A stretch of 64,000 nt of DNA, from positions 2,497-66,496 of the IMG/VR virus record IMGVR_UViG_3300028887_000117; one strand, written 5' to 3'. This stretch comes from a virus. Taxonomy: Duplodnaviria > Caudoviricetes. Both the position numbers and the translations under genes were made by a program. The notes under the pieces are model-generated. The model ran no database searches and was not told the DNA's origin. It saw only the letters and a list, made by a program, of their open reading frames with translations. Shown here piece after piece: positions 3,447-64,000 of this stretch (positions within the stretch are counted from its first letter, which is position 1; each line of letters begins with the position of its first letter).

Positions 3447-4196
3447 ATGATAGGAATTTATAAAATTACTAATAAAACTAATGGGAAAGTTTATATTGGT
3501 TAGAGTTCTAATATAGAATAGCGTTGGAAAAGACATCAACAAGTTCCTTATAATCCTAATAGTGAACAATATGAATATCCTCTTTATCGAGCAATTAGAA
3601 AATATAGTCTAAATAATTTTAATTTTGAAATTATAGAAGAATGTTCAAAAGCAGAATTAAATGATAAAGAAATATATTGGATACAATATTATGACATCTG
3701 TAGTCCAAAAAAAGGATATAACTTATCAACGGGAGGATCTGGAAATCATTTTGGAAAATTAAATTATGATACATTAAAACAAGTAATAGATTTAATTAAA
3801 AATTCTAATATAGAACTTAAAGATATTGCCAATAAGTTTAATATTTCGCTAATTTCAATCAAAGATATAAATTAGGGACATAGTTATTATAATGAAAAAG
3901 AAAAATATCCTTTAAGATAGACAAAAAATATAAAATATTATTGTCCTTTATGTGGAACAGAAGTATCTTCAGAGGGAAGAAAATGTGTTAAATGTTTTGC
4001 TTTATCTTAGAGGATAGTAGAAAGACCCAATAGAGAAGAGCTAAAATATCTTATTCGTACATTACCTTTTACTCAAATAGGCAAAAAATATGGAGTTTCT
4101 GATAATGCAATAAGAAAATGGTGTATTATAGAAAATTTACCTAAAACAAAAAAGGAAATAAATCAATATACAGAGGAAGAGTGGGAGAAAATTTAA
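3447..4196 (+). CDS. GIY-YIG homing endonuclease (5 in-frame TAG=Gln)
   Basis: AGGAGG RBS; MIGIYKITN..YIG*S, CxxC..CxxC and C-terminal HTH-like region; single open frame to TAA if TAG is read through. Confidence 0.9.
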
Positions 4197-4207
4197 TCTC
4201 CCCATAT

Positions 4208-4282
4208 GCGCCAATAGTTTAATGGTAAAACAACGCACTTTTAATGCGTGAGACGTGATGGGTTCAAGTCCCTCTTGGCGTA
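4208..4282 (+). tRNA. tRNA-Lys(TTT)
   Basis: ACGCA-CTTTTAA-TGCGT arm. Confidence 0.88.
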
Positions 4283-4289
4283 TTTATCT

Positions 4290-4380
4290 GGAGTTGTAAG
4301 CCTAATTTGGTAAGGCAGGAGATTGCTAATCTCTGAGTAACCGTTTCGACGGCGTGCTGGTTCAAGTCCAGTCAACTTCG
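4290..4380 (+). tRNA. tRNA-Ser(GCT)
   Basis: anticodon loop TTGCTAA, long variable arm, G73. Confidence 0.88.
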
Positions 4381-4409
4381 TTAAGTTAAAATTTAAAGGA
4401 GGAATTATA

Positions 4410-4526
4410 ATGTTACTTCTTGGTATAGGTTTTATTGTTGGTGGATTTGTAGGTATATTCTATTCGGCGCTTTGTAGTGCGGCAAAGCAAGGAGATAAAG
4501 ATATAGGGATAGAAGATGATAAGTAA
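4410..4526 (+). CDS. 38-aa membrane peptide, DUF3789-like
   Basis: AGGAGG RBS; MLLLGIGFIVGGFVGIFYSALCSAAK pattern. Confidence 0.6.
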   Translation: MLLLGIGFIVGGFVGIFYSALCSAAKQGDKDIGIEDDK

Positions 4527-4532
4527 TTATAT

Positions 4533-4616
4533 GCCGTAGTCGCTCAGTTGGTGGAGCAGCAGTCTTGAAAACTGCCAGCCTGAAAGGGTATGTAGGTTCG
4601 AATCCTATCTGCGGCG
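4533..4616 (+). tRNA. tRNA-Ser(TGA)
   Basis: GCAGT-CTTGAAA-ACTGC arm, long variable arm. Confidence 0.9.
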
Positions 4617-4628
4617 TTAATTAAATAT

Positions 4629-4700
4629 GCTGGGCATAGTGTAATGGAAGCACGACAGATTGTGGCTCTGTTAGTGGTCGTTCAAATCGACCTGTTCAGA
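4629..4700 (+). tRNA. tRNA-His(GTG)
   Basis: ACAGA-TTGTGGC-TCTGT arm, G-1 present. Confidence 0.85.
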
Positions 4701-4796: not shown

Positions 4797-5081
4797 ATGA
4801 AGATTTATAGATATGAACACCCAGACGGTGGTGGTCCATATTGTAGTTTTTATGGATACCCAAGAGATATGAAGGTGCATTTTCCTATTGATACATCATA
4901 TCTTTATGGGTGTAAATCTATTGAAGAACTTTATAAATACTTTGAAAATCATTAGGACTTGGTAAAGGATTGTAAGATTTTTGTTTATGACGTGCCTGAT
5001 GATGAAGTGAAGATTAACGAGGTTCAAGTACAATTCCCTAAAAAGTATTATAAAAATAAAAAGGAGTATAAAGGATAGTGA
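4797..5081 (+). CDS. hypothetical protein (2 in-frame TAG; absent from ORF track)
   Basis: GGGGG RBS, MKIYRYEHPDGGGPY..., ends TAG-TGA just before next gene. Confidence 0.65.
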
Positions 5082-6120: not shown

Positions 6121-6280
6121 TAACCGTTAACATTGGGTTTAAAGTTTTGCACCAGCTATATTAGATGATAGCCAACGGAGAAAACGGTATAGAAAGAAGT
6201 CAGGGGAAAACTTATTATTGACGCTAGCAGTAGCTAGTGTCATATGCACGAGTGGTGGAATGGGCAGACACAAGGGACTT

Positions 6281-7049
6281 TGGTGTGTTCTGTCATCATC
6301 AGATGACACTATTGGAAACAATAGAGAGTGCTCTAAGGGAAACCTTAGAAGTAGAAGGTTGCTAATTCGGCGAAGGCGAACACAGAACGCCGAGCAAGGA
6401 TTTTAGGTAGACGGAAGTTTTAGAGTATTTTCTATGTTTTCCTACTTATAATTGAGGTGAGGAAAATGTAGAAATATACAAAAGAATGGTTACAAGAACT
6501 TTGTGCTAGTAGTTATTCTTATGCTGAAGTCTTACGAAAAGCTGGTCGCAAAGTAAGCGGCGGCGCACAACAAACCTTAAAGAAGAAAATCGAAGAATTT
6601 GGAATTGATGTAAGTCATTTTACTGGTCAGCGTTGGCAACAATCACCAAATGCACCAGATAAAACAGGTTCAAGAGAGAAGTATTCTATTGAAGAAGTTT
6701 TTGTAAAAGATAGTCCAGTAACTCAAAAGATAATGAGAGGGTATGTAGAAAGACATAATCTTATACCTTATCGTTGTGATTGTTGTGGCTGTGATGGTCA
6801 TTGGCAAGGAGGAGAAATTTCATTAGAAATTGACCATATTGACGGAGATAATAATAATAATGAATTATCAAATCTTCGTTATTTATGTCCAAATTGTCAC
6901 GCTCTTACTGAAACTTATCGAGGAAAAAATAAGCACCTAAAATCTATGTGTAGAGACTGTACACAACCAACCTAAGTCGTTAAGATATGGTTAAGACTCA
7001 GTCCAGACTACAACACTTTTTAGTGGCTATGGCGACATAGAGTAGTAAG
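6281..7049 (+). mobile_element. group I intron in the tRNA-Leu anticodon
   Basis: U before 5' splice site, terminal G, core-like segments GCTAATTCGGCGAA / AACGCCGAGC / TGTAGAGACT / AAGACTCAGTCC, GAAA-capped peripheral hairpins. Confidence 0.85.
6466..6975 (+). CDS. intron-encoded HNH homing endonuclease (codon 2 is TAG)
   Basis: GAGGTGAGG RBS; M*KYTKEWLQELC...; CDCC..LEIDHIDG..N..L.NLRYLCPNCH. Confidence 0.88.
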
Positions 7050-7180
7050 AAAATCCCTCGGTAGAGATACCGTACGAGTTCAAGTCTCGTCTCGTGCACC
7101 AGCCGACTTGTCAATGTCGATAAACTTGGCTGACTTGTCAATGTCAATAAACTTGGTGAGTGAAGAAGCCACTCGAAAAA

Positions 7181-15623: not shown

Positions 15624-16715
15624 ATGCTTGCACTGCAAGATTTTATAATGAAGAATGAGGATTGGAAAGAAAAACTTTCTAACCCTCCTTATTCGCTTAT
15701 AATAAAAGAAAAGGATAATCTTGTCCTTTTTAAATATACTCAGGGAGTATCTGATTTTAATGAGCCTATATGTAATGAAGCGCGTGGAATAATACTTGAA
15801 AAGGGAACTTGGAAAGTAGTAAGAATAGCGTTCAATAAGTTCTTTAATCTTGGTGAAGAGCACGCGGCAGATATAGATTGGGAAACTGCGGTAGCAACTG
15901 AAAAGATGGATGGTTCGCTTATATCTTTCTATTGGTACAATGGAGAGTGGAGAGTTGCTACTAATGGTTGTATAGATGCTGAAGATGCGCCTTGTGACGG
16001 AGCATTTAAGACTTTTAAGGATTTGATAGATAGAGCATTGGAAGATAATCCTATTAACTTTAATAGCCTTAATAAAAATATAACTTATACTTTTGAACTT
16101 TGCACTCCTCATAATCAGCAGGTTGTTGAGTATAAAGATTTTAAACTTTATTTCTTGCTTGCAAGAGATAACCGTACTCTTGAAGAATATATAGATTTTA
16201 AGATTGCGTGGTTGAATGGTTTTGAAATGCCTAAGCTATATCCTATTAAGGGTAATAAGGAAGATTTTAAAAAATTTGTTGAAACTTTTGGCGATGATAA
16301 AGAAGGCATTGTTGTAAAAGACTCTGGTTTTAATAGAGTTAAGATAAAGACTGAAACTTACTTCCAACTTCACCACTGGTTGAACAATGGTAATGTAGGT
16401 AGAAAGAGAATATTTGAACTTTTAGAAACAGGAGAAGATAGCGAGTTTTTAGCTTATTTTCCAAGATATAAAGATGCTTTTAATAATATGAAGAAGGAAA
16501 TTGAAAATGCTAAATATAAGATAGAAATTGTAGAAAAGTTTGTTGCAAGATGGAAAGACAGACATCCTGACGGTACTAAGAAACAGTTTAGTGAGTTTGT
16601 TAATCTAACAACTGAGAAATATCAGTTCTATTTTTATAGAGCATATGATTATGGAAAGATTGAACCGCCAGAAGATATTAATATGCGTATGAAGTTTTAT
16701 AAAATTGAACCGTAA
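15624..16715 (+). CDS. T4 Rnl1-like RNA ligase
   Basis: EARGII, AFNKFFN, TEKMDGSLI, EGIVV, VKIKT nucleotidyltransferase motifs. Confidence 0.85.
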   Translation: MLALQDFIMKNEDWKEKLSNPPYSLIIKEKDNLVLFKYTQGVSDFNEPICNEARGIILEKGTWKVVRIAFNKFFNLGEEHAADIDWETAVATEKMDGSLISFYWYNGEWRVATNGCIDAEDAPCDGAFKTFKDLIDRALEDNPINFNSLNKNITYTFELCTPHNQQVVEYKDFKLYFLLARDNRTLEEYIDFKIAWLNGFEMPKLYPIKGNKEDFKKFVETFGDDKEGIVVKDSGFNRVKIKTETYFQLHHWLNNGNVGRKRIFELLETGEDSEFLAYFPRYKDAFNNMKKEIENAKYKIEIVEKFVARWKDRHPDGTKKQFSEFVNLTTEKYQFYFYRAYDYGKIEPPEDINMRMKFYKIEP

Positions 16716-30870: not shown

Positions 30871-30876
30871 TTATTT

Positions 30877-43757: not shown

Positions 43758-43894
43758 AATTTAATCAATTCCTTTCTCGTTTTAAAGAGTTTTTGTTCTC
43801 TTATCTTGATTATATTATAGCATATATTTTTCGATTTGTCAATAGGTTTTGAAAAATTTCTTTTTGAACTTTTTGTTAATTTGTTATTTAATTT

Positions 43895-46998: not shown

Positions 46999-47321
46999 TT
47001 TTAAACACCTGTCTTTCTTTAAGTTTCTGTATACATTATACATCATATAGATACAAAAGTCAATTACAAAATTATTACAAAAGGTTACAAAACGGTTACA
47101 GAACGCTTTAACGTTTTAAAGTGCTAAAATGTTACGAAAGTGTGAACGGTGCGGCGGCTCAGAATGTTAAGAGAATGTTAATAGTGCGACAGTGTCGTGT
47201 CGCTATGTTTATCTCTTGTTCATAATTAATCTGTCGTTATGTTCATAATCTCGAAATAATTAAAAAATTTAACTAATTAATGAAAAAGAAAAACGGCATT
47301 TCTGCCGTTTTCCATTTATTA

Positions 47322-49345: not shown

Positions 49346-49707
49346 GTCAACTCCTTTTGTTTTTCTATATATAGTATAGCATAAATTTTATTAAAAGTCA
49401 ATAGTTATTTTTTAAAGTTTTTATAAATTTGTTTTATTTTTTAATTATTAAGATTATGTTAATGCGGCGATGGTTGATTTGTTAAGATAATATTAACATT
49501 GCGATTGTCTATCGCATTGTTCACATTGAGAAAACATTTTGTGCCGCAGTCGTGCTGTTCACAATCTGGCAATAGTTAAAAAATAAAACAAATTCATAAA
49601 AATTTAATAAAAAAAATTCAAAAACCTATTGACAAATCTAAAAAAATATGTTATTATATAAGTACAGTAAAGAACAACAAATAAAACTAAAAAGGAGTTT
49701 TGATGTT

Positions 49708-50832
49708 ATGAAATTTGATTACAAGTTTAAGAAGAATGATATGGTAGTAAATACTGAGACAGCAAGAGTTGGCACAATTATCAAGAGAATAGGTTCATAT
49801 GATAAACCGTGTTATCTCGTAGAGTATGATATATCAACGCCGCCTTTTCTTGAAAAAGAAGAAAATCTTCATTTAGTTGTTTGTGGAACGACGTCTGAAA
49901 ATTCAACTGCAAATCAGGTTGAAAAAAATAACCTCGAAGAAAGAAAAGAAACTTTAAGAAATCATTTTGACCACATAGAAAGACACTGCCGCACAATTTT
50001 TAAATATGGTAGGAATATTTCTGAGCAGGCATTTTCAGGAAAGATAACTCCGTGTTTTGCAAGGGAAAAGGAAATTGAACAGATTAAGTGTGCTATGTAC
50101 AGAAGAACAAAGTCAAATGCTTTACTGTTGGGAAAAGCTGGAGTCGGAAAAACCGCTATTGTAGAGGGATTGGCTATTGATTACAATAGAGAATATCTCA
50201 ACGGCGAAATAGAAGAATATAATATGATACTTGAACTTAGTCTTAACGCACTTGTTAGCGGTTGCCGTTGTAGAGGAGACTTTGAGGAAAGACTCGAAAA
50301 TGTTTTGAAAGAACTTGGAAATACTCTACCATATAATGTAATAATCTTTATTGATGAAATACACAGTCTGAATGAGGTCGGCAATAGTGAGGGTGCTACA
50401 TCGGCAGGACAGATTTTAAAGCCTGCACTTGCAAGGGGAGATATAAAGGTTATCGGTGCAACGACAACAGATGAATATAAACAGTATCTAAAACCCGACG
50501 CCGCACTTGCAAGAAGATTTAACAATATTTATATTGAAGAATTTAAGGGTGAAAAAGCAAAGTCAATAGTATCAAGTATCTTTGAAGATTATGGTAAACA
50601 CTTTGGAATAGATATTAGCGAAGTTGATATAACTAATATCTATGATAAGAGTATCAATAAAATTAGCGGCACTTTCCCCGATAATTTTATTAACATAATT
50701 GATGAAACACTTGCTATTGCAAAATGCCACAAGGAAAAAGCTATAAAAATGAGTAACTTTGACAAGGTACTTGAAAGATACTATAAAATGGATAATAAGA
50801 AAAATTCTTCATTGGGATTTTCTACCACTTAA
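49708..50832 (+). CDS. ClpA/B/C-like AAA+ ATPase, first nucleotide-binding domain only, with N-terminal SH3-like domain
   Basis: RRTKSNALLLGKAGVGKTAIVEGLA, RGDFEERL, IFIDEIH, LKPALARG, IGATTTDEY, ALARRF; no NBD2. Confidence 0.85.
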   Translation: MKFDYKFKKNDMVVNTETARVGTIIKRIGSYDKPCYLVEYDISTPPFLEKEENLHLVVCGTTSENSTANQVEKNNLEERKETLRNHFDHIERHCRTIFKYGRNISEQAFSGKITPCFAREKEIEQIKCAMYRRTKSNALLLGKAGVGKTAIVEGLAIDYNREYLNGEIEEYNMILELSLNALVSGCRCRGDFEERLENVLKELGNTLPYNVIIFIDEIHSLNEVGNSEGATSAGQILKPALARGDIKVIGATTTDEYKQYLKPDAALARRFNNIYIEEFKGEKAKSIVSSIFEDYGKHFGIDISEVDITNIYDKSINKISGTFPDNFINIIDETLAIAKCHKEKAIKMSNFDKVLERYYKMDNKKNSSLGFSTT

Positions 50833-52804
50833 ATAAAAGGGAACGAATGTTCCCTTTTTATTTTCTATATTAGTTAAAATTTTTAACCAATTCCATAGTG
50901 TCGCAGTGTTCATAATCTGTTCATAACTAAGGGCGGCGCAACGTTCATAAATTGTTCATTTATTGTTTACAAAAAATTCATTGACAAATCACTTGAAATA
51001 TGTTATATTATATATAGTAAAGAACAACACTGAGTCAAAAAATTAGGAGTGATTTAAAATGACAATTTATGCAGTTGAGAAAACTTATTACGCTTGCGGT
51101 TTGCACAAAGAGATTAAGGGATATTTTTCAAAAAAGACAAAAGCAATTAAGGAATTGCTAAAAATTACTAATTATCAAAACGGTTTTCATATTTCTTATG
51201 AGGAAAAACGCTGGAATAAGGAAAATCAGAGAATGGAAACTATACTTTGTACTCCATATTACAATCCCGATAAAAAGGATATGAGTGATTGGAGACATAG
51301 CGGAATAACAAAACTTGAAATGTATAGACGTTTGTTAAAAGGAAAAAATGCGGGCTGTTATAATTATGAAACAGGCGGATATAGAATATTGGAAATAGAG
51401 GTTGATTAAAATCAACCTTTTTCTTTTGATATTTAGTTAAAAGTTTTAACTAATTCCTATGTCGCTATGTTCATAAATCCGTAATAGTTAAATCTTTTAA
51501 TTTATTAATTAAAGGTTTACTTGACAAATTGAAATTTATATGTTATACTATAATCAAGATAAGAGAACGAAAACTCTTTAAAACGAGAAAGGATTTGATA
51601 TTATGAAATTTGTTATTAGAAAAATAATTGAGAGAGAATGGGGATATGATAATTATAAACGTTCGCATTATGAAGATAAAATTTATCTTAATCCTTATAC
51701 TTATAAAGATGCTTTAAGAAAAATTAGTATGATATATGATGATATGGGGCGTATGTATAATACATTTAGTTCAACAATATATAAGTGGAATATAATTACA
51801 ATGCTTGTTCCAGTATCAGACAATTTTAAGAGTCAAACTAACTGGATAAATACAAAAAGTTTTTTAAAATATAAAGGTTGAATAAAATCAACCTTTTCTT
51901 TTTTCGTGAATTAGTTAAAAATTTTAATTAAATCGCCACGATGTCGCTATGTTCATAATTTAGACATAGTTAAAACTTTTAATTTATTAATAAAAAGTTT
52001 ACTTGACAAATTGAAATTTATATGTTATACTATAATCAAAGAAAAGAAAAGGAGTTGAATTAAATGAATTTTATATGGATAGTACATTTTTTCGATTTTT
52101 CAGAATTTAAACTGGAAATGCACATCTTCTCTCACCCGCAGTATGCATATAACTTTTGCCGTGAGTATCTGAAAAAGTATGAAAAGGAAGATTTTTACAG
52201 TGATTACTGTGCTATGTTGTGTCATTCTTATTCCGACAGTCGTGCAGATTTTGGAATTGAAAATGTAATTAGTGCAAAAAGATATGCAATTGAAAAGTAA
52301 AGTTTGTACAATTTGATGATTGACAAAAGCAAGATTATATGCTATAATATAATCAAGATAAAAGAACGGAACTTTTAAAATAAGGAGGATAATAATTATG
52401 GAAATGAAAACAACACAGAAAATTTTTAACAATTTTCTTGACAATCTTGCAGAGTTGGCTTGTGCTTTCTATGTAGCAAGTTGTGAGGAAACAGGCGCTG
52501 AAATTCTTGAACCTGATAACGAAGAACTTGCAGAAATGATTAGAGAGGTTGGCTGCAAGATTTGTGATTTTTGGCAGATTAAGGAAGTTAAAGAGGGCGA
52601 ATAACCCTCTTTAATTTTTCTTTAATTAATTAAAAATTTTAATTATTAAAGGGTTGTTAACTTTGCGACATTACAGGGGTTGAATATTTTATTAACAATG
52701 CGACTTGATGTCGGGTTGTTAACTTTCAGTTCATTTTTAAAAGGGGTCGTAATATTCATAAAAAATTAAAAAGGCGGTTCTAAATTTTAACCGCCTTTTT
52801 ATAT

Positions 52805-52845
52805 CGGGTTTCAACCTACGACATTACTACGTCCTCGATTACCCT
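52805..52845 (-). ncRNA. small hairpin RNA with GAG/GUA internal loop (copy 1 of 3)
   Basis: own promoter and terminator, no ORF; covarying copies at 54946-54983 and 56588-56633. Confidence 0.6.
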
Positions 52846-54945
52846 CTTTCTTTATATACATTATACCATATTCCTTTTGATTTGTCAAGATAAAATTTTA
52901 CTAATTTTTAAGTAGAAACTTTGTGCATTTTGTCTATTGATTTTATTATTAAAATGTGGTATATTATAAGTACAGAAGAAAACAACACAAAACTTTGAAA
53001 GGCGGTTTTATTTATGACAAATTTTGGAGAATGGGTAAGAAGAATGGTTAATCAGTATGAGGAAGATGATAGTATTTTAATTAGACTTTTTGGCAGTAAA
53101 ACCTATGTTGCATATAATTTTAAAACACAGAAAACATCTATTGCAAGATGTCACCCAAAAGATGTTTTTGTTGAAGAAATAGGTCGAGCAATTGCCTATG
53201 CACGTTGCAAGGGATATGAGATACCAAAAGTTGAGGTTTACAAGAAACTTTCCGAGATGAAGAACGGCGAAAAATTTATAACTTCTTCTGGAGATACTTA
53301 TAGATATATTGCAAGAGATGACTATAAAGGGGTTTTCGTTGTTTATAACGAGAGTAGGAAATATGGCGGAATGGCTTTTGACCTTAAATATAAAATGGTT
53401 GAGTAAAATCAACCATTTTCTTTTTAATAGAATATGAACAACGCGACAGATGAACGGCGGCACTTTGTAATCAAATCGTAATTATTTGTAACCGTTTTGT
53501 AATTGACTTTTCTATTGTTTTATGGTATATTATATATAGTAAAGAACAACATTGAGACTTTTGAAAGGTGGTTTTACTATGAATGAAATTTTTATGCTGT
53601 TGGTTTGTGTTGATGATGAGGACGCTATCTATAATCGCTATTTTTTCACAACATTTGAAAAGGCTTTTGAATTTGCAAAAACTTTTGCAAACGATTTTAT
53701 TAAAAAATGCAAGTGGGAAAATATTGAAGATGAATTGATTGAGGATTTGAGAAAATGTGGTAATCTTGCAGATTTTATCTACATTGAAAAAGTAATCCTT
53801 GACGATGGAAACAATTACTAAAAGAAAAGAGGAACGAATGTTCCTCTTTTAACTAACCTTCCTGTCGCATTGTTCATAATTAGTTAAAAGGGGAATTACT
53901 CCCCTTTTTTATAATACCTTTTAATTCTCTCGAAAACCTCTTTGACATCTAAGTAGCCTTCTACTGTGTCATCATCGTTTTCGCAGATAGCTCCAGCTAC
54001 TTCAACCAGCCCGCTATCGCGACCGTAGCTGAAATCGTGACAAATCACGTCAAGCTCCCACGTTTCAAGCTCGGGACATACAAGTTGTAGCCCGTTGAAT
54101 AGTGGACGCAGAATAAAAGGGATACCCTCGGCAGAGCACAAGTTGGCAAGGCGCAGTATTGGCTCACAATATTTGGGATTGGAAGTTTTTGGAAGCTGTA
54201 ATCCATTGTCAAAATTTGTCATATTATGACCACCTTTCAATATTTTCTAATAACATTATACCACAATAAATGTTAAAAATCAAGAGTTGAAAAATTAATT
54301 TTTTGTGAATTGATTTGTGAATGAGATATGAACGTTGCGACCGTGCAATTGTTAACATAGTGTTAAGACTGCGACGTCGCTATCGCATTGTTAACATTTA
54401 GTTCACAATTGCGCCGCCCCTCAACTGTCGCAACATTCATAGTATGTTAATAATTAAAAATTTTAACTAAGAAATAAAAGGGAGAGTAATCTCCCTTAAA
54501 TTTCCATTTCTCTTGAATAGCAACAAAGTTCACAGTATCCTTTAAATTCACCTCTAAAGAACCTAACTTTACCTTTATTGTACATTTTTGTCATTTCTTG
54601 AATGGCTTCATCAATTTTGCTTCTGGGAAAACTATGATGTACACCATACCAATCAAGTTCCTCTTCCATAAAGTCAAATGCTTCCTGATGGTTATCGAAA
54701 AGTTCGGGTTCGCCCTCTGAATAGGTTACGATAAAAAATGTTTTTGTCATTGTAAACAACTCCTTTGTTTTATTTTCTATATATAGTATAGCATATATTT
54801 TATTAAATGTCAATAGTTATTTTGTTAAAGTTTTATTAATTAGTTAAAATATTTTATTTTATGCTATTTAAATCTATCGCGTTGTTCATAATGTGTTAAT
54901 AAAAAGAGAGTTAACAAAAGTTAACTCTCATTGGGTTTTGCTTTT

Positions 54946-54983
54946 GGCTTTACGCCTACGACGCTACTGCGTCCTCGGCTACC
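54946..54983 (-). ncRNA. small hairpin RNA with GAG/GUA internal loop (copy 2)
   Basis: GCC-GAG-GACGC-AGTA-GCGTC-GTA-GGC; own promoter and terminator. Confidence 0.6.
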
Positions 54984-57900
54984 TTTCTTTTCTTTTCTAT
55001 ATACAGTATAACACATATTTAAGAAAAAGTCAATAGTCAAATTGCACAAAGTTTTTATTTTCTTTTGTTTATTTTAACAAGAGCAAAGTGTCGCAGTGTT
55101 AATAATTTGTTTACAAAATAGGGGTTGACAAATTGAAAGAAGTGTGTTATAATAAGGACAGAAAATAAAACAAAGGAGTTGTTCATATGAATACTGTATG
55201 GGTAATAGTTAAAGATGGAAAGACTTACGGAGTCGCAAAAGATAGGATTAGTGCATATCATATCCTTAAAGAGTACGTTATTAAAAATTATAACGGAGTA
55301 CCGAAAGCAATAGCAAAAAACCTTTTGACTAAAACTTTTTCAAGTCTTGATACTAAAATGTCTATAGGTAATGGAATTTATGCAGAGGAATGGGGAATAT
55401 CTGAATAAAAGAGAGTTTTAAACTCTCTTTTTATTTTTCTCTCTCTTTCTGTCGTAAACATAATAGTTTATTCATATTTTTATTCTGTCGCAGTGTTAAC
55501 ATATCATTCATTTTCGTTCACAAATTGTTTACAAAAAAATTCTTAAAACCTATTGACAAATTGGCTTGAATGTGTTATTATATAAGTACAGTAAAGAACA
55601 ACACTAAAACCTTTAAGGAGATGTTTACTATGACAATCACAAAGACAATACTTAATAAGAAACTCGAAAACCTCAACAGACAGTTTAACACAAATCTTTT
55701 TGTTCTCAACTATGCTTATGGCGGCGTTAGACTTTGCAAAACCTTTAATGAAAACGGCGGACTGACAGAAATTTCCGAAAGAGTTTCAAAGGCTGAGATG
55801 GCAAGAATTATTGACGCTATTTCAAATACTTTTTACAAGTTTGATATAAAGGTTGATTAAATTCAACCTTTATTTTTTTTCGCTTTTGTTCTGTCGCATT
55901 GTTAACATTTAATTCATAATCAATAGTGTCGCATTGGTAATAAATTGTTAATAGTTAAAACTTTTAACTAATTAAATAAAAAAGAAAAATAACGCCTCTC
56001 GGCGTTATCTTTCCCACCACTCTATGATGTCCCACAGAGTCACGATGGCGAAAGCGGACTCGTGGTCGCCTCTCTCGTCTGCCTCTCTAAGAAGGCGATG
56101 GGTCTCCGCCCAAAAGACTCTATTATCAGACAGTGGGCGACCGTTGAGGGTGATGTTTTCAAAATTTGTCATAGTGAACAACTCCTTTATACTGTTTCGG
56201 GTTTCTCTCTTACTGTACTTATAGTATACCACACTTTAAGGCAAATGTCAATTACAATTTGATTACAAAAGGTTACAAATTAGTTACAGTTTTTGTTCTA
56301 TCGCAAACATAATACTTTGTTCATATTTAATAGTGTCGCGTTGTTCATAAAAAATTAAAAGGGGAATTATCCCCTTTTAGTTTTCTCACAATGAATAGTT
56401 ACACCATTTCTCTTAATGAAGATGTACTTTTCGCCCTCGTACTCAATGTGAAAGATTGATACATAAACGTCGTCTGCCTGAAAGTCAAAATCATTCACCA
56501 AGAGAATTTTACCATAGTGAGAGCAATTCCAAAACAGATTTTCCATTTCCTTATTTGTCATAATAAACAACTCCTTTGAATAAATTAGAAAGACTTGCAA
56601 CCTACGGCACGCCTGCACCCTCGATTATCTTTCCTTTGTTTCTATATACAGTATAACACATTTTAAAAGAAAAGTCAATAACAATTTGATTACAAAAGGT
56701 TACAATTTGGTTACAGATTTTGTTCTGTCGCAATGTTCATAATCTCTTAACAATCAATAGTGTCGGATTGTTCATAAAGTTTTAATAATTAAAACTTTTA
56801 ACTTATTCAACAAAAGGAAATGGATTGATTTCTCAATCCATTACCATTGAAATAAGTTTGCCGTGTGCAATCGTTTCGTTGCGCAACTCAATCTTATTCA
56901 TTTTGCCGCAAGTCCAACAAACATAACCGTCTGCGAATGTGTACTTATAAATTTTCATAAAATCAACCTCTTTCTATGGTTTCGGGTTTTCCTTTTCTCT
57001 ATATATATAATAACACATTTTTGTTGAAAAGTCAATAGTCAAAATGACCAAAGATTTATATTAAACTTTGTCTATTTTGCGAATAGACAAAACAAGAAAA
57101 ATGTGCTATACTATAATCAAGATAAGAAAAGGAGTTGACCACTATGAAAAACAACAACTATCGCAAGATGAACACTGGCAAATATACCATACTCACAAAG
57201 AAGAACGCTCACAAGAGAGTTCGCAAGGCAAACAAGAAGATTGCCAACTCAATAGACTAAGAGGGAGAAATCCCTCTTTTTCTCTCACTCTCTATCTGTC
57301 GCTATGTTAATAGTGTGTTCATATTTTATTCTGTCGGGTTGTTTACAAAAGGTTCATAAAAAGTTCATAAACTGTTTACAAAATATTCATTGACAAATTG
57401 ATTAGAATATGTTATACTATAATCAAGATAAGGGAAGGAAAACCCACCAAACCAGAAAGGTAGTGTTTACTATGAGAAAGACCTATACTGTTGTTATGTA
57501 CGAGAACTTTACTGATGTTGTTGCTGAAAGAACCTATACCAACAAGAAAGCCGCTTTTGAAATGGCTAAGTGGTATATGGAACGTCAGTATGAACGTATC
57601 CACCCGAACAAGAAAGCGACGGACACTCTCAGAACTTGCATCAAGTACGGCACGAAGATGTTGAAAGAGAACGGCAAAATTCCTTTTATGGTAAAGATTA
57701 AAGAGAGTTGAAAAACTCTCTTTTCTTTTTGCCGTTTGCTATGTCGCATTGTTAACAATTCATTCACAATGTCGCATTGTCAATACTTTGTTCATAAGTT
57801 TGCAGTAAAGTTTGAAGTGCGGCGCAACATAACGTGTCGCAATGTTCATAAAATATTAAAGACCTTTCAAATTGAAAGGTCTTCGTTCTCGAACATCTCA

Positions 57901-60256
57901 ACAAGTTCGTAGAACTCTTTGACTGAATGACAGTCGAATTCAGTGTTGTTAATCTCACAACACTCTTCACCATAAGCGATGAAGTAAATGGATTTGGCAG
58001 TCTTTGCCAAAACCTCAAAAGTGTTTTCGATAAACTGTCTGTGTGTCATAATAAACAACTCCTTTATAGTTTTAGTGTTTTTCTTTACTATACACATTAT
58101 ACTATATATTTAGTGATTTGTCAATATTTTTTTTGAAAATTTATTTGTAAATAATTTATGAATAAGTTTATTCTGATTAACTACTCAATAGTGTCGCATT
58201 ATTAGTCTTTTGTTCATAATTAATCTGTCGCAATGTTCACAAAAAGTTAAAGAGGGAAATTACTTTCCCTCTAAGAAAAACATTGCTAAGAACTCAAACA
58301 ATTCGTCTATATCTTTTTTTGTTTTAGTCTTATCGTTTGCGCACTTATCGAATTTTTCAACAACTCTGTTGTTCTCTCCGTATCTGTCGGTAATCTTCTT
58401 TCTCATTTGCTTTATACTCATAATACACAACTCCTTTATAGTCTCGGTTTGTTCTCTTCTATGATTAAAGTATAACACATTTATACTGTTTTGTCAATAG
58501 ATATTTTGTAAATAATTTGTGAACAAAAACGGGGCGTTATCTGTCGCATTGTTCATAAAATGTTAAAGGGATTTTTTGGTAAATCCCTTTAATCATATTT
58601 TGAAAGTTGAATGAAATTATGTTCAACTTTACAAAACGGACACCACATCTTTTTTAGATGTCCTTTTGACGTTCTGCGACTTGATTTTTTATATGCCGTC
58701 GCAACAAAATTACAAGTCGGACACTTAAAACGCCGTTCTGTTACACTTGTTTTTCCCAATGTTTAATCAACTCCTTTTGTTTTCTTTATCTATATTATAC
58801 TATAAAAAAGGGGTACTGTCAATTGACATTTTGCACAAAATTATTTCTATACTTTTGGTAAAAAATAGGGGTCGGATTGTTCATACTCTGTTCATAATCT
58901 TTTAAGGGGTTGTAAACTTTTAAGGGGTTGAGATTTTTTAGGGGTTGAAAAATTTAAAACTCATTTTTCAGAATTTTTCAAACTGTCGGATTGTTCACAA
59001 TTCAGATTTATTTACTGTCGCAATGTTCACGTTCTGTTCACGAAATGTTTATAAAATATTTACAAAATATTCATTGACAAATTCGTTGAAATATAGTATT
59101 ATATAAGTATAGTAAGACAAACCCGAAACCTTTAAGGAGATGTTTAATTATGGTAATTGAGATTATGTTAGTTATTTTCATTATTCTTACTATTGTCAAT
59201 GCGTTATGCTATTTTAAAAATGCTCATAAGGAAACTATGCCAACTTATGCGGCAATTATCTGTTTAATAAATATAATCTATGGAATTATTATTGTTATAA
59301 TAGTAATGATATATGGTATAACATCATCAACAAAAGAAGAAAGCAATTCAAATTCAAGTGACTATTCAACAGAACAAACGTTTTATTATCAAATGACTGC
59401 AACCGCAGTAAATGAAAATACCTTTATAACAGAAGATGGTAATATGTGGAGAATGAAAAACATTAACATCGAAAAAGGTAAAAAGTACCAACTTACTTTT
59501 GATAATCACGATACTGAAATAATAATAGATGATGAAATTGTTGATTTCATTGAACTAAATGAAAAGGTTGATTAATGTCAACCTTTTTTCTTTATCTAAC
59601 TGTCGCATTGTTAATAATTAATCTATATTCAACTCTATCGCATTATTAATACTTTTTTAATATTTACGCCGTGCGGCACAATGTAATCTATCGCAATGTT
59701 AATATTATCTTAACAATTCTACTTTTGTTTTAGTTAAAAATAAAAACTTATTAATAAAAAGTTTAAAAAGAAATTTTTAAAAACTACTTGACAAATCTAA
59801 AAAAATATGTTATTATATAATCAAGGAAAACGAAAGAAGCCTTAAAACCTGAAACCTAAAAGGAGTTGCTACTATGAACGCAATGTGTTACAAAACAAAA
59901 GAACCTGTATACTATAACAAGGGTACAAGTTATGAAAAAAGTTGTGATACTTTTCTCTCTTATTATGCAAGCAATGACAAGAAAGAGGCAGAAGCAGAGG
60001 CAGAATATTACAACAGAGAAAAGCCTGCTAATGATGTTAGAGGTTATCCAATTGATTGGAATAAAATAGATTATTTCTATATCAATGAACAAGATTTATT
60101 TGATGACTAAGAAAAGAGGGAAAAATTCCCTCTTTTTTTTTCGCCGCCGACAGTGTCGTATTGTTAATAGCTCGTTCACAATTTGGTAGCTCGTTCATAG
60201 CTCGTAGCTTGTTTGTAGCTCGCATTATATAGGAATAAATATGGTTATATAGACAA

Positions 60257-60725
60257 TGTGAACAGTCTGTGAACGAATTGTGAATAATCTGTGAATAAAT
60301 TATGAACGAGCAGAGCAGAGCCGAATTGTGAACGAATTATTAACAAATTGTTAACGCTTAACTTATTCATCAGAAATTCACCTCTTGTTCATATTTTGTT
60401 CACATCTCGGCTCTCGCTGCATTTGTGAACGATTTGTTAAATTCTCTTGAATACACTGTTATTATACCACTTTTTGAACAAATTGTAAAGGGCTATCGGA
60501 AATTTAATGAACAGTTCATATGTGAACAAAATATGAACAAAATATTAATAAAGTGTTAATAAGTTAAATGTTGTTAATTGTGAACAAAGTGTTAATAAAG
60601 TATGAACAAAGTGTTAATAAGTTAAAGGTTTCTAAATGTGATCAAAATGTGAACAAAATGTTAATAAAGTGTGAATAAGTTAAATTAAATTAACTATTAC
60701 CAATAAATGTAAATGTGAACAAATT
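60257..60725. repeat. 11-bp-phased TGTGAA(C/T)AA-type repeats, DnaA-box-like
   Basis: starts at 60257, 60268, 60279, 60290, 60301 and again through 60520-60720; TGTGAATAA is the reverse complement of TTATTCACA. Confidence 0.8.
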
Positions 60726-60750
60726 ATTAATAAATTAAAATGGTTATAAC

Positions 60751-60925
60751 ATACTGATTTAGTATGATTTAAAGTATACTGATTTAGTATGATTTAAAGT
60801 ATACTGATTTAGTATGATTTAATTCATAGTGTTTTAGTATGATTTAAAGTATACTATTTTAGTATGATTTAAAGTATATTGTTTTGGTATGATTTAAAGT
60901 ATACTGATTTAGTATGATTTAAAAT
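60751..60925. repeat. 7 x 25-bp tandem repeat ATACTGATTTAGTATGATTTAAAGT (iteron-like)
   Basis: head-to-tail, no spacers, internal ATACT/AGTAT palindrome. Confidence 0.92.
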
Positions 60926-61224
60926 TTGATAAAAGTCAAGTGTAATCGTTTTGTTACTTTTGTAATTAATTTGTTACTTTTATTGTAAATTGACTTGAAA
61001 AAATGGTAATTAATAGGATAGAATGTTATCGTTTTGTAATTTTTGTTATGCAATATGCACAAAAATCTTTTGGTCGTTTTGTGCACATTGACGAAAAAAG
61101 TTACATAATGATTAAAATTTGCCGTTTTGACTTGAAAAGTGCGAAAAAATCAGTATAATTATACTTGTGGATAGCAAAAACGCACCACATAACAATATTT
61201 TACATTCTAAGGAAGGTGTTTTTT

Positions 61225-61725
61225 ATGACTAAGAGAAACGACAATTTCAACACTGACGCTATAAAGGCGAATATCTACGGACTTGCAAGCACTTTACTTA
61301 TTGTTACAAATGCTTTTTGGCGTTCTGATTTAGTGGTTGCTTATCGCTTTATCCGCGCTGAAACTAAGAACGACAACGCTTTAAACTCTAATCTTTTCGG
61401 GCGTGTTTGTACTGACAATGCTTTTAAGGCTGACAAACAGTGCATTAATGTACTTAGCCGCTTTTATAAGTCTTATACTATCGACTTTGTAACTACTGTA
61501 CAGGAACTTGAAACGATAGCACAAAAGCACGATTGCAATTTAGGATTTGCCGCTGAAATAGCACTTGTTAATAGTGGACTTTACAAAAAAGCGTCTGCTA
61601 AATATGACCGCAAAGGTGTAGACTTGATAGAAAAGTCAACTAATAAACTTGTTCAAGTCAAGTGTTCTGTGGTAAAAGCTGGAAGTCACGGTTCAGCGGG
61701 CGTGACCAATAAAAAAGCACATTAA
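61225..61725 (+). CDS. hypothetical protein
   Basis: AAGGTG RBS, own promoter, terminator at 61730-61765. Confidence 0.65.
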   Translation: MTKRNDNFNTDAIKANIYGLASTLLIVTNAFWRSDLVVAYRFIRAETKNDNALNSNLFGRVCTDNAFKADKQCINVLSRFYKSYTIDFVTTVQELETIAQKHDCNLGFAAEIALVNSGLYKKASAKYDRKGVDLIEKSTNKLVQVKCSVVKAGSHGSAGVTNKKAH

Positions 61726-61945
61726 ACATTATCGGGCGTTCAATATGAACGCCCATTTTTTTTAGCTTATTTTACTTAACAAATTAACACGGGGGGTACA
61801 AATTCTTAACAATTTGTTCACATTTTCCGTACCCACACCCCCTAGCACAAAATTCACACCCTTTAAAATTTAGAATCAGATCTAAAACCTAATCCCTTGA
61901 CTTTCCGAAAAATTTCGAGTATAATATCTATAGGAGGTGAGGAAA

Positions 61946-63133
61946 TTGAAGTTTAAATTAGACTTTAGCATAGTCTCAGCAAAAGACCGACTTAACGCAA
62001 TCAAACAAATTGATTTATCTACTCTTACCAAAACCGAATTAGAGACCGTTACCAATTATGTTCTCTATGGTAAAGATGAAGATGGAACCTCTGTAGTAGA
62101 TAGAAAAGAAGTTTAGATTAAAAGGAAATTTAGTTCCTTTGATAAAAATAGAACAGTTAGCCTAGAGGCTTTACTTGAAAGCCCAACTTTTGACGAGAAT
62201 ATTTTCCTTAGAGAGAAAAACATTTATACAAAAGCTACCCCCAAAATTAAGGATGTTAGGGATAGAGTTGAACACATACCAGAATTTTAGCAACTTTGGG
62301 CAGTTATTGACCAAATGAAACGTACTTACGACGAAAATACAGGCAAATTAGAAAAAACCGAAGAAACCCCTACTCTTAATTAGACTCAAATTTACTATTT
62401 ACGCCATTAGCTAATTGAATAGTATAAACAATAGTATGCATTACTTGATTCGTTTTTACCGACTATGAGGGCGAAGAAGAATAGATCGGAATATCATGGA
62501 AGTATTACGGAGAAGCAAGTTAATTTTCCCATATTACCAAGAGGTTTAAAGAACTCAATTAACGATAAAGGATTTGAAGAACCATATTACGACAAGAAAC
62601 GAATTGCGGCTGCGCCGCAAAACGAGGAAGAAATTATTAATAGTGGAAAGCCTTATATTGATTTTAGGAACATAGACCATTTATATTACTTGATTTAGTA
62701 TTATTTAGATTTAGAAGATTCGGTTAGAAATTAGCCAGATAGTTTAATTAACAATTTACTTTGGACGCTTGATTTTTATATTGAGAAAGCAAACTTAAGT
62801 CCACAATAGAGATTAATAGTTGAAGGAAAAAAGCAAAGACTTTAGATTAAAGAAATAAGGGAAAGACTTAACAAAGAGTTAGGTATTGACCATAAAGATA
62901 ATTATATAAGTACAATTTGGAATAAAAGTTTAGAATTGATTAAAGAAGCAGTTGAATTGAATTATGATGAATTTTTAAGTAAAGATTATGAGAAAGCTTG
63001 GAAGAAATGTAGTAGATGTGGAAAGGTTTTATTGAGAGACCCTAGAAATTTTGTTAGAAAGAGCAAGGCAGTTGACGGTTTAACTGGAAGATGTAAACGT
63101 TGCGATCGAGAAGTAAGATAGGGAAATAAGTAA
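61946..63133 (+). CDS. 395-aa protein with C-terminal CxxC-CxxC Zn finger; 11 in-frame TAG (track splits it into 62465..62698 and 62936..63121)
   Basis: AGGAGGTGAGG RBS, TTG start, one frame with no TAA/TGA until 63131. Confidence 0.85.
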
Positions 63134-63228
63134 CGATTTAAGTTGTTATTTTTCTTACTCGGTGCCGCGCCCCACACTTTTTAGCAACTCTACTATAGAG
63201 ACAGCTTAACAATAATGGAGGATTAAAA

Positions 63229-63552
63229 ATGAGATTTAAGAAAAAGGATAAATTGGCTAAAGATGCATTAAGCATTATTAGTTATTTTTAGTATTTTTAG
63301 ATAACCGACTTACTTGCATTTGGTAAACTTCTAGGTGTAGAAGAGCAAGATGACTTTGAAGATTATTTAGCAGAAATAACTTTAAAGTACACAGAGTTAT
63401 CCAAGAGAGAAAAGGATAAATATTTAAAACTTGCCAAAGCATTAGCAGGTAAAACTGGTGGAGACATGAAGGAAGTTGAGAAATTAAGAGAGACTTATAG
63501 ATTAAAATTAAAAGAAAAATTAGAAGAAAATTCCGAAAAAGTTGGAGACTAA
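63229..63552 (+). CDS. hypothetical protein with 2 in-frame TAG (absent from track)
   Basis: GGAGG RBS, continuous frame to TAA. Confidence 0.75.
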
Positions 63553-63695
63553 AATTTGTTGATTACTTACTTAGTGCCGCGGCTCAAAAAGTTTTGAATG
63601 GGTTTGGGATAAACGTATGATTTGTCAAGACCTATGCAGAAATTTGCGAAGCGCGGCACAACGTATATTTAAACAAATGAAAGAAGGTGATTAAA

Positions 63696-64000
63696 ATGGC
63701 ATCAAAAGTATGTATGAAATGTGGTGTCGAAAAATCTACTGCAAACTATATCGCTGTAAATTCTCCAATTCATAATGGAAGTTTACCTATATGCCGCGAC
63801 TGTATTGCAGATATGATTGAACAATCGGAAGAAAAATGGAATACGGTTGATAAAATATGTTAGTGGGCTGATATACCTTTTGTTCCAGAATAGTGGGAGA
63901 AAATTTATCAAGGTCAAGGAAGAAATGCTTTTGGAATGTATGCAAGTATTTTCCGTTCTTCCCCATATGATACTCTTGATTGGAAAATGTATAATGATGT
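63696..64000 (+). CDS. Zn-finger protein, truncated by window end, 2 in-frame TAG; possibly terminase small-subunit-like (weak)
   Basis: AAGGTG RBS; CMKC...PICRDC...IC*WADIPF. Confidence 0.65.

What the first reader, a model, noticed from the sequence alone, without database searches (positions are those of the whole stretch)
3447..64000. TAG use is partitioned: long early genes are TAG-free, homing endonucleases and right-end genes are TAG-gated
Rnl1 (363 aa), Pnk-HD (324 aa), the Clp ATPase (374 aa) and nearly all cassette genes contain no TAG and are translatable in the host code. Genes from 61.9 kb carry 15 TAGs in about 600 codons. All three intact homing endonucleases have a TAG very early (HNH codon 2, GIY-YIG codon 19), as does 35937 (codon 16). 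Inference: the code switch acts as a timer keeping toxic nucleases and late genes off until a suppressor is made. No CTA-anticodon tRNA is in this window, so it should lie elsewhere.
Basis: partly seen in the sequence, partly recalled or inferred. Interest (0 to 1): 0.7.

Follow-up and report, generated by a model that had tools for sequence, protein, structure and literature searches.

The report
Amber-recoded phage with partitioned TAG use
This is about one third of a large phage genome that reads the stop codon TAG as glutamine only in its late-module genes and its selfish DNA-cutting genes, a real and statistically clear pattern whose "translation timer" explanation has already been published for other phages.

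Summary
In my 109-gene model of the 66.5-kb contig, 33 in-frame TAGs fall in only 10 genes (26 expected if spread over Gln-like sites; P<5e-5). The class-B early-promoter block has 0 TAG in 3,832 codons; the three right-end genes have 15 in 603. All 3 homing endonucleases carry TAG, against 3 of 101 neighbouring genes (p=1e-4). TAG means Gln: 8 of 11 TAG columns in the 395-aa right-end protein are mostly Q in 43 homologues, two invariably so. TAG replaces CAG.

Corrections:
- The suppressor tRNA(CUA) is on the same contig, 1.9 kb left of the window, behind a host-type promoter.
- "TAG very early" is not statistically robust.
- The four genes that end in TAG all have a back-up stop within one codon.

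The partition recurs in a complete 163.5-kb relative (late block 9.3 TAG per 1,000 codons, other blocks 1.4-4.8). There, late genes with expression-type codon bias avoid TAG.

The timer idea, including recoded stops gating a homing endonuclease, was published by Borges et al. TAG=Gln was reported in what appears to be this phage group by Babkin et al. 2023. This scan has noted the same pattern on other DNA. Verdict: a new member of a known kind. Adaptive timing is plausible but unproven.

The parts
292..546 (+). Small ORF (84 aa, C-terminal zinc ribbon) with in-frame TAG at codons 18 and 33, inside the mostly TAG-free block
3447..4196 (+). Free-standing GIY-YIG homing endonuclease between tRNA-Leu and tRNA-Lys. 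It has 5 in-frame TAG; the first is codon 19, in the YIG-Q-S motif.
   Evidence: PF01541 at 1.1e-09 and phrog_7168 at 3.6e-37 run across the TAGs. Positions. Two G002 paralogues have Q at the codon-19 site.
4797..5081 (+). 94-aa ORF with TAG at codon 53. It ends TAG-TGA.
   Evidence: phrog_1106 matches residues 1-83, across the TAG. Terminal codons.
6246..7101 (+). tRNA-Leu(UAA) split between U34 and A35 by a 769-nt intron-like insert that holds the HNH gene. The insert follows a U and ends in G.
   Evidence: ARAGORN with introns allowed, sequence read. The Rfam group I model did not match, so the intron class is unverified.
6466..6975 (+). HNH homing endonuclease (169 aa). Its only TAG is codon 2.
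   Evidence: phrog_10822 at 2.5e-52 aligns from the N-terminus. Start context.
23970..24713 (+). Second GIY-YIG homing endonuclease after a tRNA cluster, with 5 TAG (codons 19, 108, 123, 134, 208). It is about 51-54% identical to the first.
35937..36680 (+). 247-aa ORF of unknown function with TAG at codon 16. It is the last TAG-bearing gene before the class-B block.
   Evidence: no family match
15624..16715 (+). RNA ligase 1 (363 aa), TAG-free; Gln codons CAA 2, CAG 5
   Evidence: phrog_562 at 4.9e-49
18174..19148 (+). Polynucleotide kinase-like protein (324 aa), TAG-free; CAA 0, CAG 8
   Evidence: phrog_6931 and phrog_505
49708..50832 (+). Clp-type AAA ATPase (374 aa), TAG-free; CAA 0, CAG 5
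   Evidence: phrog_4871 at 6.7e-67
36700..61800 (.). Block of 36 small genes on both strands behind about 33 class-B promoters (TTGACA, 17 nt, TGn-TATAAT). It has 0 in-frame TAG in 3,832 codons.
35396..35809 (+). Gene ending TAG-ACC-TGA: a TAG terminator with a back-up stop
38234..38596 (+). Gene ending TAG-GGA-TAA: a TAG terminator with a back-up stop
47319..47672 (-). Gene ending TAG-TAA: a TAG terminator with a back-up stop
61897..61925 (+). Host-type promoter TTGACT-17-TATAAT, 20 nt before the first TAG-rich gene. An equivalent promoter stands in the same place in two other lineages.
61946..63133 (+). 395-aa protein with 11 in-frame TAG, the first gene of the TAG-rich module. PHROGs labels it 'sigma factor'; that identity was not verified here.
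   Evidence: phrog_5767 at 1.9e-19. About 24% identity to Enterococcus phage genes annotated as sigma factor. In 43 homologues, Q is the commonest residue at 8 of the 11 TAG columns. No Pfam or NCBIfam sigma domain. Fold matches only Z about 6.5.
63229..63552 (+). 107-aa ORF with TAG at codons 21 and 24
63696..64000 (+). Start of a phrog_3314 gene (2 TAG in 101 codons) that runs off the contig. It is syntenic with the gene after the sigma-labelled gene in G002.

Best explanation
The contig is about a third of a roughly 160-200 kb phage genome. The phage carries Firmicutes-style signals and appears to belong to the Enterococcus-phage-EF1 / phAss-like group. It uses genetic code 15 (TAG = Gln) in only part of its genes.

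Shown:
- A phage tRNA with a CUA anticodon and a tRNA-Gln-type acceptor end and D-arm is encoded 1.9 kb left of the window, behind its own near-consensus host-type promoter.
- Genes behind the two classes of host-type promoter are written so that either code reads them. They have no in-frame TAG, and the four TAG terminators are backed up by TAA/TGA within one codon.
- The module that starts at 61.9 kb, the three homing endonucleases embedded in tRNA operons, and four small ORFs (one of them left of the window) use TAG where other genes use CAG.

Inferred: without the suppressor, ribosomes terminate at the first TAG, so these products can be completed only once the tRNA has accumulated. For the 11-TAG right-end gene, which also has a host-type promoter, full-length yield should rise roughly as the eleventh power of suppression efficiency. 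That would be a feed-forward delay, not a late transcriptional switch.

My odds: partial code-15 recoding with a real partition, about 0.95. The partition maintained by selection as a timer or safety gate rather than being merely tolerated, about 0.4-0.5.
For: TAG = Gln:
- Q is the commonest residue at 8 of 11 TAG columns in 43 homologues, and invariant at two of them. Background Q frequency is 5%.
- TAG/Q polymorphisms occur among close relatives.
- The YIG-Q-S motif site is TAG or Q in different GIY-YIG paralogues.
- CAG is 7% of CAA+CAG in TAG-bearing genes against 55% in TAG-free genes, p=5e-10.

Suppressor:
- ARAGORN finds tRNA(cta) at contig 525-596, and the Rfam tRNA model scores it 63.4 bits.
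- It has U1-A72 and G73. Its D-arm 20-mer matches tRNA-Gln in 7 of 11 exact genomic hits.
- A TTGACT-17-TATAAT promoter lies at contig 434-462.

Partition:
- Statistics.
- 61 near-consensus promoters are found against 5 expected, in two classes.
- Back-up stops: 4 of 4 TAG-ending genes against 8 of 109 others, p=8e-5.

Replication in relatives:
- Complete relative G002 has a tRNA(CTA). Its late block has 9.3 TAG per 1,000 codons, against 1.4-4.8 in the other four blocks; the late block stays higher within each stratum of Lys/Glu G-ending codon use.
- 4 of its 5 GIY-YIG-type genes carry TAG.
- The TAG-free to TAG-rich boundary falls at the same gene, behind a host-type promoter, in lineages 58% and 46% identical.
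- No RF or GlnRS/GluRS-type synthetase gene (Pfam PF00472, PF00749) was found.

Published model.
Against: - No expression data exist. Timing is inferred from promoter classes only.
- The suppressor shares its promoter class with 26 TAG-free operons, so it may be present almost from the start.
- TAG position shows no robust 5' bias.
- TAG sites turn over between lineages, with few shared columns.
- In G002, late genes with high AAG/GAG/CAG use carry 0-1 TAG, and paralogues of one virion protein family range from 0 to 8 TAG. Both fit cost-driven avoidance as well as timing.
- The host and its genetic code are unknown.
- The 'sigma factor' label of the right-end gene is unverified.
Confidence: 0.8

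Rival explanations
1. Passive tolerance with no regulatory role. Once the suppressor exists, C-to-T mutation in an AT-rich genome turns CAG into TAG in any gene whose product is not needed before the tRNA accumulates and is not made in bulk. The partition is then a footprint of where TAG is harmful, not a device selected to delay expression.
For: - TAG specifically replaces CAG, and TAG-bearing genes are generally poorer in G-ending codons.
- TAG sites differ between lineages.
- There is no robust 5' bias.
- Late genes with expression-type codon bias avoid TAG in G002.
- The endonucleases' TAG share of Gln-like codons (11 of 34) is no higher than that of the right-end genes (15 of 28).
Against: - The boundary is sharp, sits at the same gene and follows a host-type promoter in three lineages that have different TAG positions.
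- The HNH gene's single TAG is at codon 2.
- The late against non-late difference persists within codon-bias strata.
- None of these excludes neutrality.
Confidence: 0.4
2. Foreign origin. The endonucleases, and perhaps the late module, were acquired from other amber-recoded phages and keep the donor's codon habits. The partition would then reflect history rather than expression.
For: - Homing endonucleases are mobile.
- Their codon use (CAA plus TAG, almost no CAG) matches the right-end class, not their neighbours.
- The suppressor tRNAs of this contig and of G002 do not look homologous on inspection, which suggests parts are exchanged.
Against: - The two GIY-YIG genes here are only about 51-54% identical paralogues, so they are probably long resident.
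- The late module is syntenic across relatives.
- Foreign origin would not explain the back-up stops or the total absence of TAG in 3,832 codons of the class-B block.
Confidence: 0.12
3. The TAG-containing ORFs are decaying pseudogenes, and TAG is an ordinary stop.
For: Homing endonucleases often decay. 35937-36680 and three small TAG-bearing ORFs have no family match.
Against: - Family profiles align across the TAGs.
- TAG columns are Q in homologues.
- TAA and TGA never interrupt these frames.
- A tRNA(CUA) is present.
Confidence: 0.02

Closest known systems
Alternatively coded (code 15, TAG=Gln) gut phages and the 'recoding regulates late and lytic genes' model (Borges et al., bioRxiv 10.1101/2021.08.26.457843; proteomic support in Peters et al. 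2022, PMC9523058; block-wise codes in the Mgcod preprint, bioRxiv 10.1101/2022.06.29.495998)
   Same: - A phage-encoded suppressor tRNA.
- Only part of the genes recoded, with early genes compatible with the standard code.
- TAG rare as a terminator.
- Recoding concentrated in the late module.
- The same proposed mechanism: translation blocked until the suppressor is available.
   Different: - The lineage is a large EF1/phAss-like phage with Firmicutes-style signals, not a crAss, Lak, Garnet or Topaz phage.
- No RF or aaRS helper gene was found.
- The first TAG-rich gene is a putative regulator behind a host-type promoter, rather than a lysis cassette.
Group I intron endonuclease of TGA-recoded Agate phages, preferentially recoded and proposed to be held off until late (Borges et al.)
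   Same: Selfish endonuclease genes embedded in early-transcribed DNA carry recoded stops while their neighbours do not. One of them here (the HNH) lies inside an intron-like insert.
   Different: - Here the codon is TAG (Gln), not TGA (Trp).
- Two of the three are free-standing GIY-YIG genes in tRNA operons.
- The interrupted gene is a tRNA-Leu(UAA), not a protein gene.
- The intron class is unverified.
phAss-1 / proposed Phassvirus group (Babkin et al. 2023, PMC10607447)
   Same: - Large gut phages with many tRNAs, tRNA-Sup(CTA) genes and TAG=Gln in a minority of ORFs (28% in phAss-1).
- No synthetase gene.
- The authors place Enterococcus phage EF1 near the group, and the 395-aa protein here also hits EF1.
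   Different: - No direct similarity to phAss-1 itself was found. It was not among the nine phage records that matched the 395-aa protein.
- That paper does not analyse partition by promoter class or the endonucleases.
Phage T4 intron endonucleases (I-TevI and relatives), whose translation is delayed by late promoters and RBS-sequestering hairpins. This is from my own knowledge of Gott et al. 1988; I did not read the paper here.
   Same: The functional outcome is the same: a homing endonuclease embedded in early-transcribed RNA is kept untranslated until late.
   Different: The mechanism differs: RNA structure plus late transcription in T4, dependence on a suppressor tRNA here. This is an analogy, not membership.
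T4 SegB and the T5 free-standing endonucleases in tRNA gene clusters
   Same: GIY-YIG and HNH endonucleases inserted between phage tRNA genes.
   Different: Those phages use the standard code. No stop-codon gating is involved.

Membership tests
Code-15 partially recoded phage (Borges-type alternatively coded phage) | In-frame TAG inside genes whose homologues continue across it | tested here: met
   Pfam and PHROG profiles span the TAGs in the GIY-YIG, HNH, phrog_5767, phrog_3314 and phrog_1106 genes.
Code-15 partially recoded phage (Borges-type alternatively coded phage) | TAG corresponds to glutamine | tested here: met
   Q is the commonest residue at 8 of 11 TAG columns and invariant (43 of 43) at two. 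TAG/Q polymorphism among relatives. CAG depletion.
Code-15 partially recoded phage (Borges-type alternatively coded phage) | Phage-encoded suppressor tRNA with CUA anticodon | tested here: met
   Contig 525-596: ARAGORN and Rfam tRNA at 63.4 bits. It lies outside the window but on the same contig.
Code-15 partially recoded phage (Borges-type alternatively coded phage) | TAG depleted as a true terminator | tested here: met
   Stops are TAA 84 and TGA 25. Only four genes end in TAG, each followed within one codon by TAA/TGA.
Code-15 partially recoded phage (Borges-type alternatively coded phage) | Recoding biased to late genes, with early genes compatible with the standard code | tested here: met
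   Contig. Complete relative G002: 9.3 TAG per 1,000 codons in the late block against 1.4-4.8 elsewhere. Same boundary in L030 and L034. 'Early' and 'late' are inferred from promoter classes and gene content.
Code-15 partially recoded phage (Borges-type alternatively coded phage) | Host uses the standard code | not testable with these tools
   The host is unknown. SD motifs and sigma-70-type promoters only suggest a Firmicutes-type host.
Translational timer (recoded stops delay protein production) | TAG-containing proteins appear later than TAG-free ones in infection | not testable with these tools
   This needs time-course proteomics or Ribo-seq.
Translational timer (recoded stops delay protein production) | TAG placed early in gated genes beyond chance | tested here: inconclusive
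   Contig: first-TAG p=0.035, all-TAG p about 1. G002: p=0.17 and p=0.008.
Group I intron with homing endonuclease | Group I catalytic core; 5' exon ends in U; intron ends in G | tested here: inconclusive
   The splice-site nucleotides and the U34/A35 insertion site fit. Rfam reports no group I match at E<=1.
Sigma-70 family sigma factor (for the 395-aa right-end protein) | Sigma region 2 and region 4 domains | tested here: inconclusive
   phrog_5767 'sigma factor' at 1.9e-19. No Pfam or NCBIfam sigma model in 44 members. No sequence match to solved structures. Fold matches to sigma-H, SigB and ECF sigma chains only at Z about 6.3-6.5, within noise.

The most novel reading that the evidence does not exclude
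The code switch sits upstream of late transcription. A host-RNAP-transcribed suppressor tRNA would license translation of a TAG-dense regulator, the 395-aa 'sigma factor'-labelled protein. That gene is the first gene of the late module, has its own host-type promoter, and keeps 5-13 TAGs at changing positions in three lineages. Late gene expression would then be triggered by tRNA accumulation through a steep, multi-codon threshold. This would be a tRNA-licensed checkpoint, not just late genes that happen to contain TAG.
Probability: 0.2. Interest if true: 0.6.

Novelty: new member of a known kind. Interest (0 to 1): 0.35.

Why it matters
It adds a clean, quantified example of block-wise amber recoding in a large phage group with Firmicutes-style signals. 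Early blocks are defined by promoter class. TAG terminators carry back-up stops. TAG stands in for CAG. The TAG-free to TAG-rich boundary is conserved at one putative regulatory gene.

It also shows that the published 'timer' reading cannot be told apart from simple cost-avoidance by sequence alone. In a complete relative, late genes with expression-type codon bias avoid TAG, and there is no solid 5' bias of TAG.

For annotation, such contigs need mixed-code gene calling. With table 11, the endonucleases and the late module are fragmented.

Tried and rejected
- Group I intron model on 6100-7400: no Rfam match at E<=1. A blastn search of the insert against phages found only the HNH core. The intron class stays open.
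- Theta (minimal HDV-like) ribozyme after the suppressor tRNA, following bioRxiv 10.1101/2023.06.13.544163: no Rfam match in contig 1-2600. There is no G within 5 nt of the tRNA end. The fold of contig 597-706 is not unusual, z=-1.6.
- Sigma identity of the 395-aa protein: Pfam, NCBIfam, PDB sequence search, Foldseek and VIA-align all failed to confirm it.
- Pure codon-bias explanation of the partition: rejected as the sole cause, because the late block keeps 2-3.5 times more TAG within each stratum of Lys/Glu G-ending codon use in G002.
- Release factor or GlnRS/GluRS-type synthetase helper genes (Pfam PF00472, PF00749): none in the contig or in two complete relatives.
- An endonuclease next to this contig's suppressor tRNA: none found, unlike in G002.
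The closer relatives (66-77% identity, contigs up to 184 kb) could not be inspected.
- The metagenome scan returned only the 58% and 46% lineages.

Full report
**What the DNA is.** The window is bases 2497-66496 of a 66,496-bp viral contig that CheckV estimates at 32% complete. GC is about 33% and the + strand has a strong positive GC skew. The window holds 28 tRNA genes covering all 20 amino acids. It also holds an RNA-repair set (Rnl1, Pnk, Rnl2, a tRNA methyltransferase-like gene), a Clp-type ATPase, two GIY-YIG and one HNH endonuclease, and many small ORFs. The 395-aa protein at the right end is about 24% identical to Enterococcus phage genes (EF1, VRE9) annotated as sigma factor. It is 58% identical to proteins on 154-170 kb IMG/VR contigs. 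I fetched one of these, G002 (163,503 bp, terminal repeats, 100% complete), in full.

**Checking the observation.** I built a gene model with TAA/TGA as stops, starts chosen by Shine-Dalgarno motif and coding score, and a codon log-odds filter. It gives 110 genes; one dubious 61-aa ORF was set aside.
  - Rnl1 (363 aa), Pnk (324 aa) and the ATPase (374 aa from 49708) are TAG-free.
  - The three right-end genes hold 11, 2 and 2 TAGs in 603 codons.
  - The GIY-YIG genes start at 3447 and 23970, each with a TAG at codon 19.
  - The HNH gene starts at the ATG at 6466 with TAG as codon 2.
  - 35937 has TAG at codon 16.
- Family profiles align across the TAGs, so these are read-through frames and not wrecks.
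- The clustering is far beyond chance. The 33 TAGs fall in 10 genes; dealing them at random over all 312 Gln-like codons hits 26 genes on average and never fewer than 18 in 20,000 trials.
- By block, TAG as a share of all Gln-like codons (TAG+CAA+CAG) is 0.50 in the two ORFs left of the suppressor, 0.07 in the class-A block, 0.00 in the class-B block (3,832 codons) and 0.54 at the right end.
- Inside the two host-promoter blocks, 3 of 3 endonucleases carry TAG against 3 of 101 other genes (p=1.1e-4).

**What TAG means.** The 395-aa protein has hundreds of full-length homologues. In an alignment with 43 of them, Q is the commonest residue at 8 of the 11 TAG columns and invariant at two. Q makes up 5% of residues overall. 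Close relatives show TAG/Q polymorphisms. The codon-19 TAG of the GIY-YIG genes sits at the Q of the YIG-Q-S/T motif in two G002 paralogues. TAG-bearing genes have almost no CAG: 3 CAG against 41 CAA, where TAG-free genes have 129 CAG against 106 CAA (p=5e-10). TAG plus CAG together make 47% of Gln-like codons, close to the 55% CAG of TAG-free genes. TAG is therefore Gln and stands in for CAG.

**The suppressor.** The window has no CUA tRNA. ARAGORN on the whole contig finds one at contig 525-596, 1.9 kb left of the window, and the Rfam tRNA model scores it 63.4 bits. It has U1-A72 and G73. Its D-arm 20-mer occurs in bacterial tRNA-Gln in 7 of 11 exact genomic matches; the other 4 are tRNA-Cys, which I recall has a different discriminator base. 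A TTGACT-17-TATAAT promoter lies about 60 nt upstream. No release-factor gene or GlnRS/GluRS-type synthetase gene (Pfam PF00472, PF00749) is present in this contig or in two complete relatives.

**Promoter architecture.** The contig has 61 sites within one mismatch of TTGACA-16..18-TATAAT, against 5 in shuffles. They fall into two classes.
- Class A is TTGACT with a conserved T4-A6-T5-G spacer. It occurs 26 times on the + strand, from the suppressor tRNA to 33.7 kb.
- One further TTGACT-17-TATAAT site, with a different spacer, lies at 61897-61925, 20 nt before the 11-TAG gene.
- Class B is TTGACA with an extended -10. It occurs about 33 times on both strands between 39 and 60 kb, driving small genes.
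- The endonucleases have no promoter of their own. They lie inside tRNA operons.
- In G002, class-B-like sites fill 0-13.5 kb, class-A-like sites fill the replication and tRNA regions, and the 14-60 kb virion block has only three such sites, all inside genes.
- I infer that class B is immediate-early, class A is early or middle, and the promoter-poor block is late. This is inference from promoter and gene content only.

**Code-neutral writing of the early genes.** Only four genes end in TAG, and all four have TAA or TGA within one further codon. That compares with 8 of 109 for genes ending in TAA/TGA (p=8e-5). This implies the suppressor is active while such genes are still being translated.

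**Replication in relatives.**
- G002 carries a tRNA(CTA) in its tRNA cluster. Its scaffold looks unrelated to the one here, and it lies 140 nt before a GIY-YIG gene with six TAGs.
- TAG per 1,000 codons in G002 is 9.3 in the late block, 1.4 in the takeover block, 2.2 in the replication block, 4.8 in the 101-120 kb block and 1.6 in the tRNA region.
- Four of G002's five GIY-YIG-type genes carry TAG.
- In L030 (58% lineage), 13 upstream genes have no internal TAG, and the TAG-rich run starts exactly at the homologue of the 395-aa gene. In L034 (46% lineage), that gene has 13 TAGs after a largely TAG-free upstream region.
- All three lineages have a host-type promoter directly before the gene.
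- TAG positions are mostly different between lineages.

**Limits of the timer reading.**
1. TAGs are not placed early beyond chance. The mean relative position is 0.470 against 0.474 for CAA/CAG in the same genes. The first-TAG test gives p=0.035, but two of its ten genes are paralogues sharing a site. In G002 the corresponding results are p=0.008 for all TAGs (mean relative position 0.442 against 0.499) and p=0.17 for the first TAG.
2. Several genes in G002's late block have high AAG/GAG/CAG use and carry 0-1 TAG. Four paralogues of one virion protein family (phrog_2729) have 0, 1, 8 and 8 TAGs, inversely to CAG. That these are abundant virion proteins is my inference from codon bias and position. 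TAG therefore looks costly and is also avoided by codon-bias class. The late block still keeps 2-3.5 times more TAG within each stratum of Lys/Glu G-ending codon use.
3. The suppressor shares the class-A promoter with the TAG-free genes. Any delay is tRNA accumulation time.

**Comparison with what is known.**
- Borges et al. (bioRxiv 10.1101/2021.08.26.457843) already propose that early genes use the standard code, that suppressor tRNAs are made early and that recoded late and lysis genes follow. [quoted passage not shown]
- Peters et al. (PMC9523058) give proteomic support for code 15 in crAss-like phages.
- Babkin et al. (PMC10607447) describe TAG=Gln with tRNA-Sup(CTA) in a phage group that they say may include Enterococcus phage EF1.
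- This scan has also logged amber-gated endonucleases on other genomes.

The finding is thus a well-documented new member of a known kind.

**What may be new here.** Several details stand out. A conserved host-type promoter precedes a TAG-dense putative regulator at the head of the late module. TAG terminators have back-up stops. TAG substitutes for CAG. An HNH gene with TAG at codon 2 lies inside an insert that splits tRNA-Leu(UAA) at U34/A35. The 'sigma factor' label rests on PHROGs alone; Pfam, NCBIfam, PDB sequence search and fold searches did not confirm it.

Noticed in passing
contig G000:C1:525-596 (L001:525-596), 1.9 kb left of the window: Suppressor tRNA(CUA) with U1-A72, G73 and a tRNA-Gln-like D-arm. 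It has its own TTGACT-17-TATAAT promoter at contig 434-462. Just upstream, a 66-codon ORF (contig 192-392) carries 3 TAGs.
   Followed up: yes
window 6246-7101: tRNA-Leu(UAA) interrupted between U34 and A35 by a 769-nt insert that carries the HNH gene. The 5' exon ends in U and the insert ends in G, as in group I introns, and from memory this is the site of the classic cyanobacterial tRNA-Leu intron. Rfam's group I model does not match.
   Followed up: partly
window 7615-8211 (+): Full-length ROOL RNA (238.7 bits against a gathering score of 99.1), directly behind a class-A promoter at 7560-7588.
   Followed up: no
window 13191-13304 (+): skipping-rope RNA match just above the gathering score (38.7 against 36.7 bits).
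   Followed up: no
window 7173-7277 (+): Weak YrlA (Y RNA-like, tRNA-like module) match, E=0.023 and far below the gathering score, in the ORF-free stretch between the tRNA-Leu gene and tRNA-Glu.
   Followed up: no
whole contig; class A from -2062 to 33707 (+), class B from 39300 to 60500 (both strands): 61 near-consensus sigma-70-type promoters against 5 expected, in two families with different -35 hexamers and conserved spacers. The class-A spacer, T4-A6-T5-G, is nearly invariant and may be a binding site.
   Followed up: partly
G002 reverse complement 139984-141058 (forward strand: L008:2446-3520): In the complete relative, the suppressor tRNA (81 nt, a scaffold that looks unrelated to the one here) lies 140 nt upstream of a GIY-YIG endonuclease with six TAGs. 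In this contig, no endonuclease adjoins the suppressor.
   Followed up: partly
G002 reverse complement 27522-35795 (L013:7709-15982, minus strand): Four tandem paralogues of a virion structural protein (phrog_2729) have opposite Gln codon habits. Counts as CAA/CAG/TAG are 0/19/0 and 5/12/1 against 25/2/8 and 14/2/8.
   Followed up: partly
window 40061-40726 (-) and 46336-46998 (-): Two paralogous genes of phrog_20187, with a weak match to a DNA polymerase exonuclease subunit, in the class-B block.
   Followed up: no
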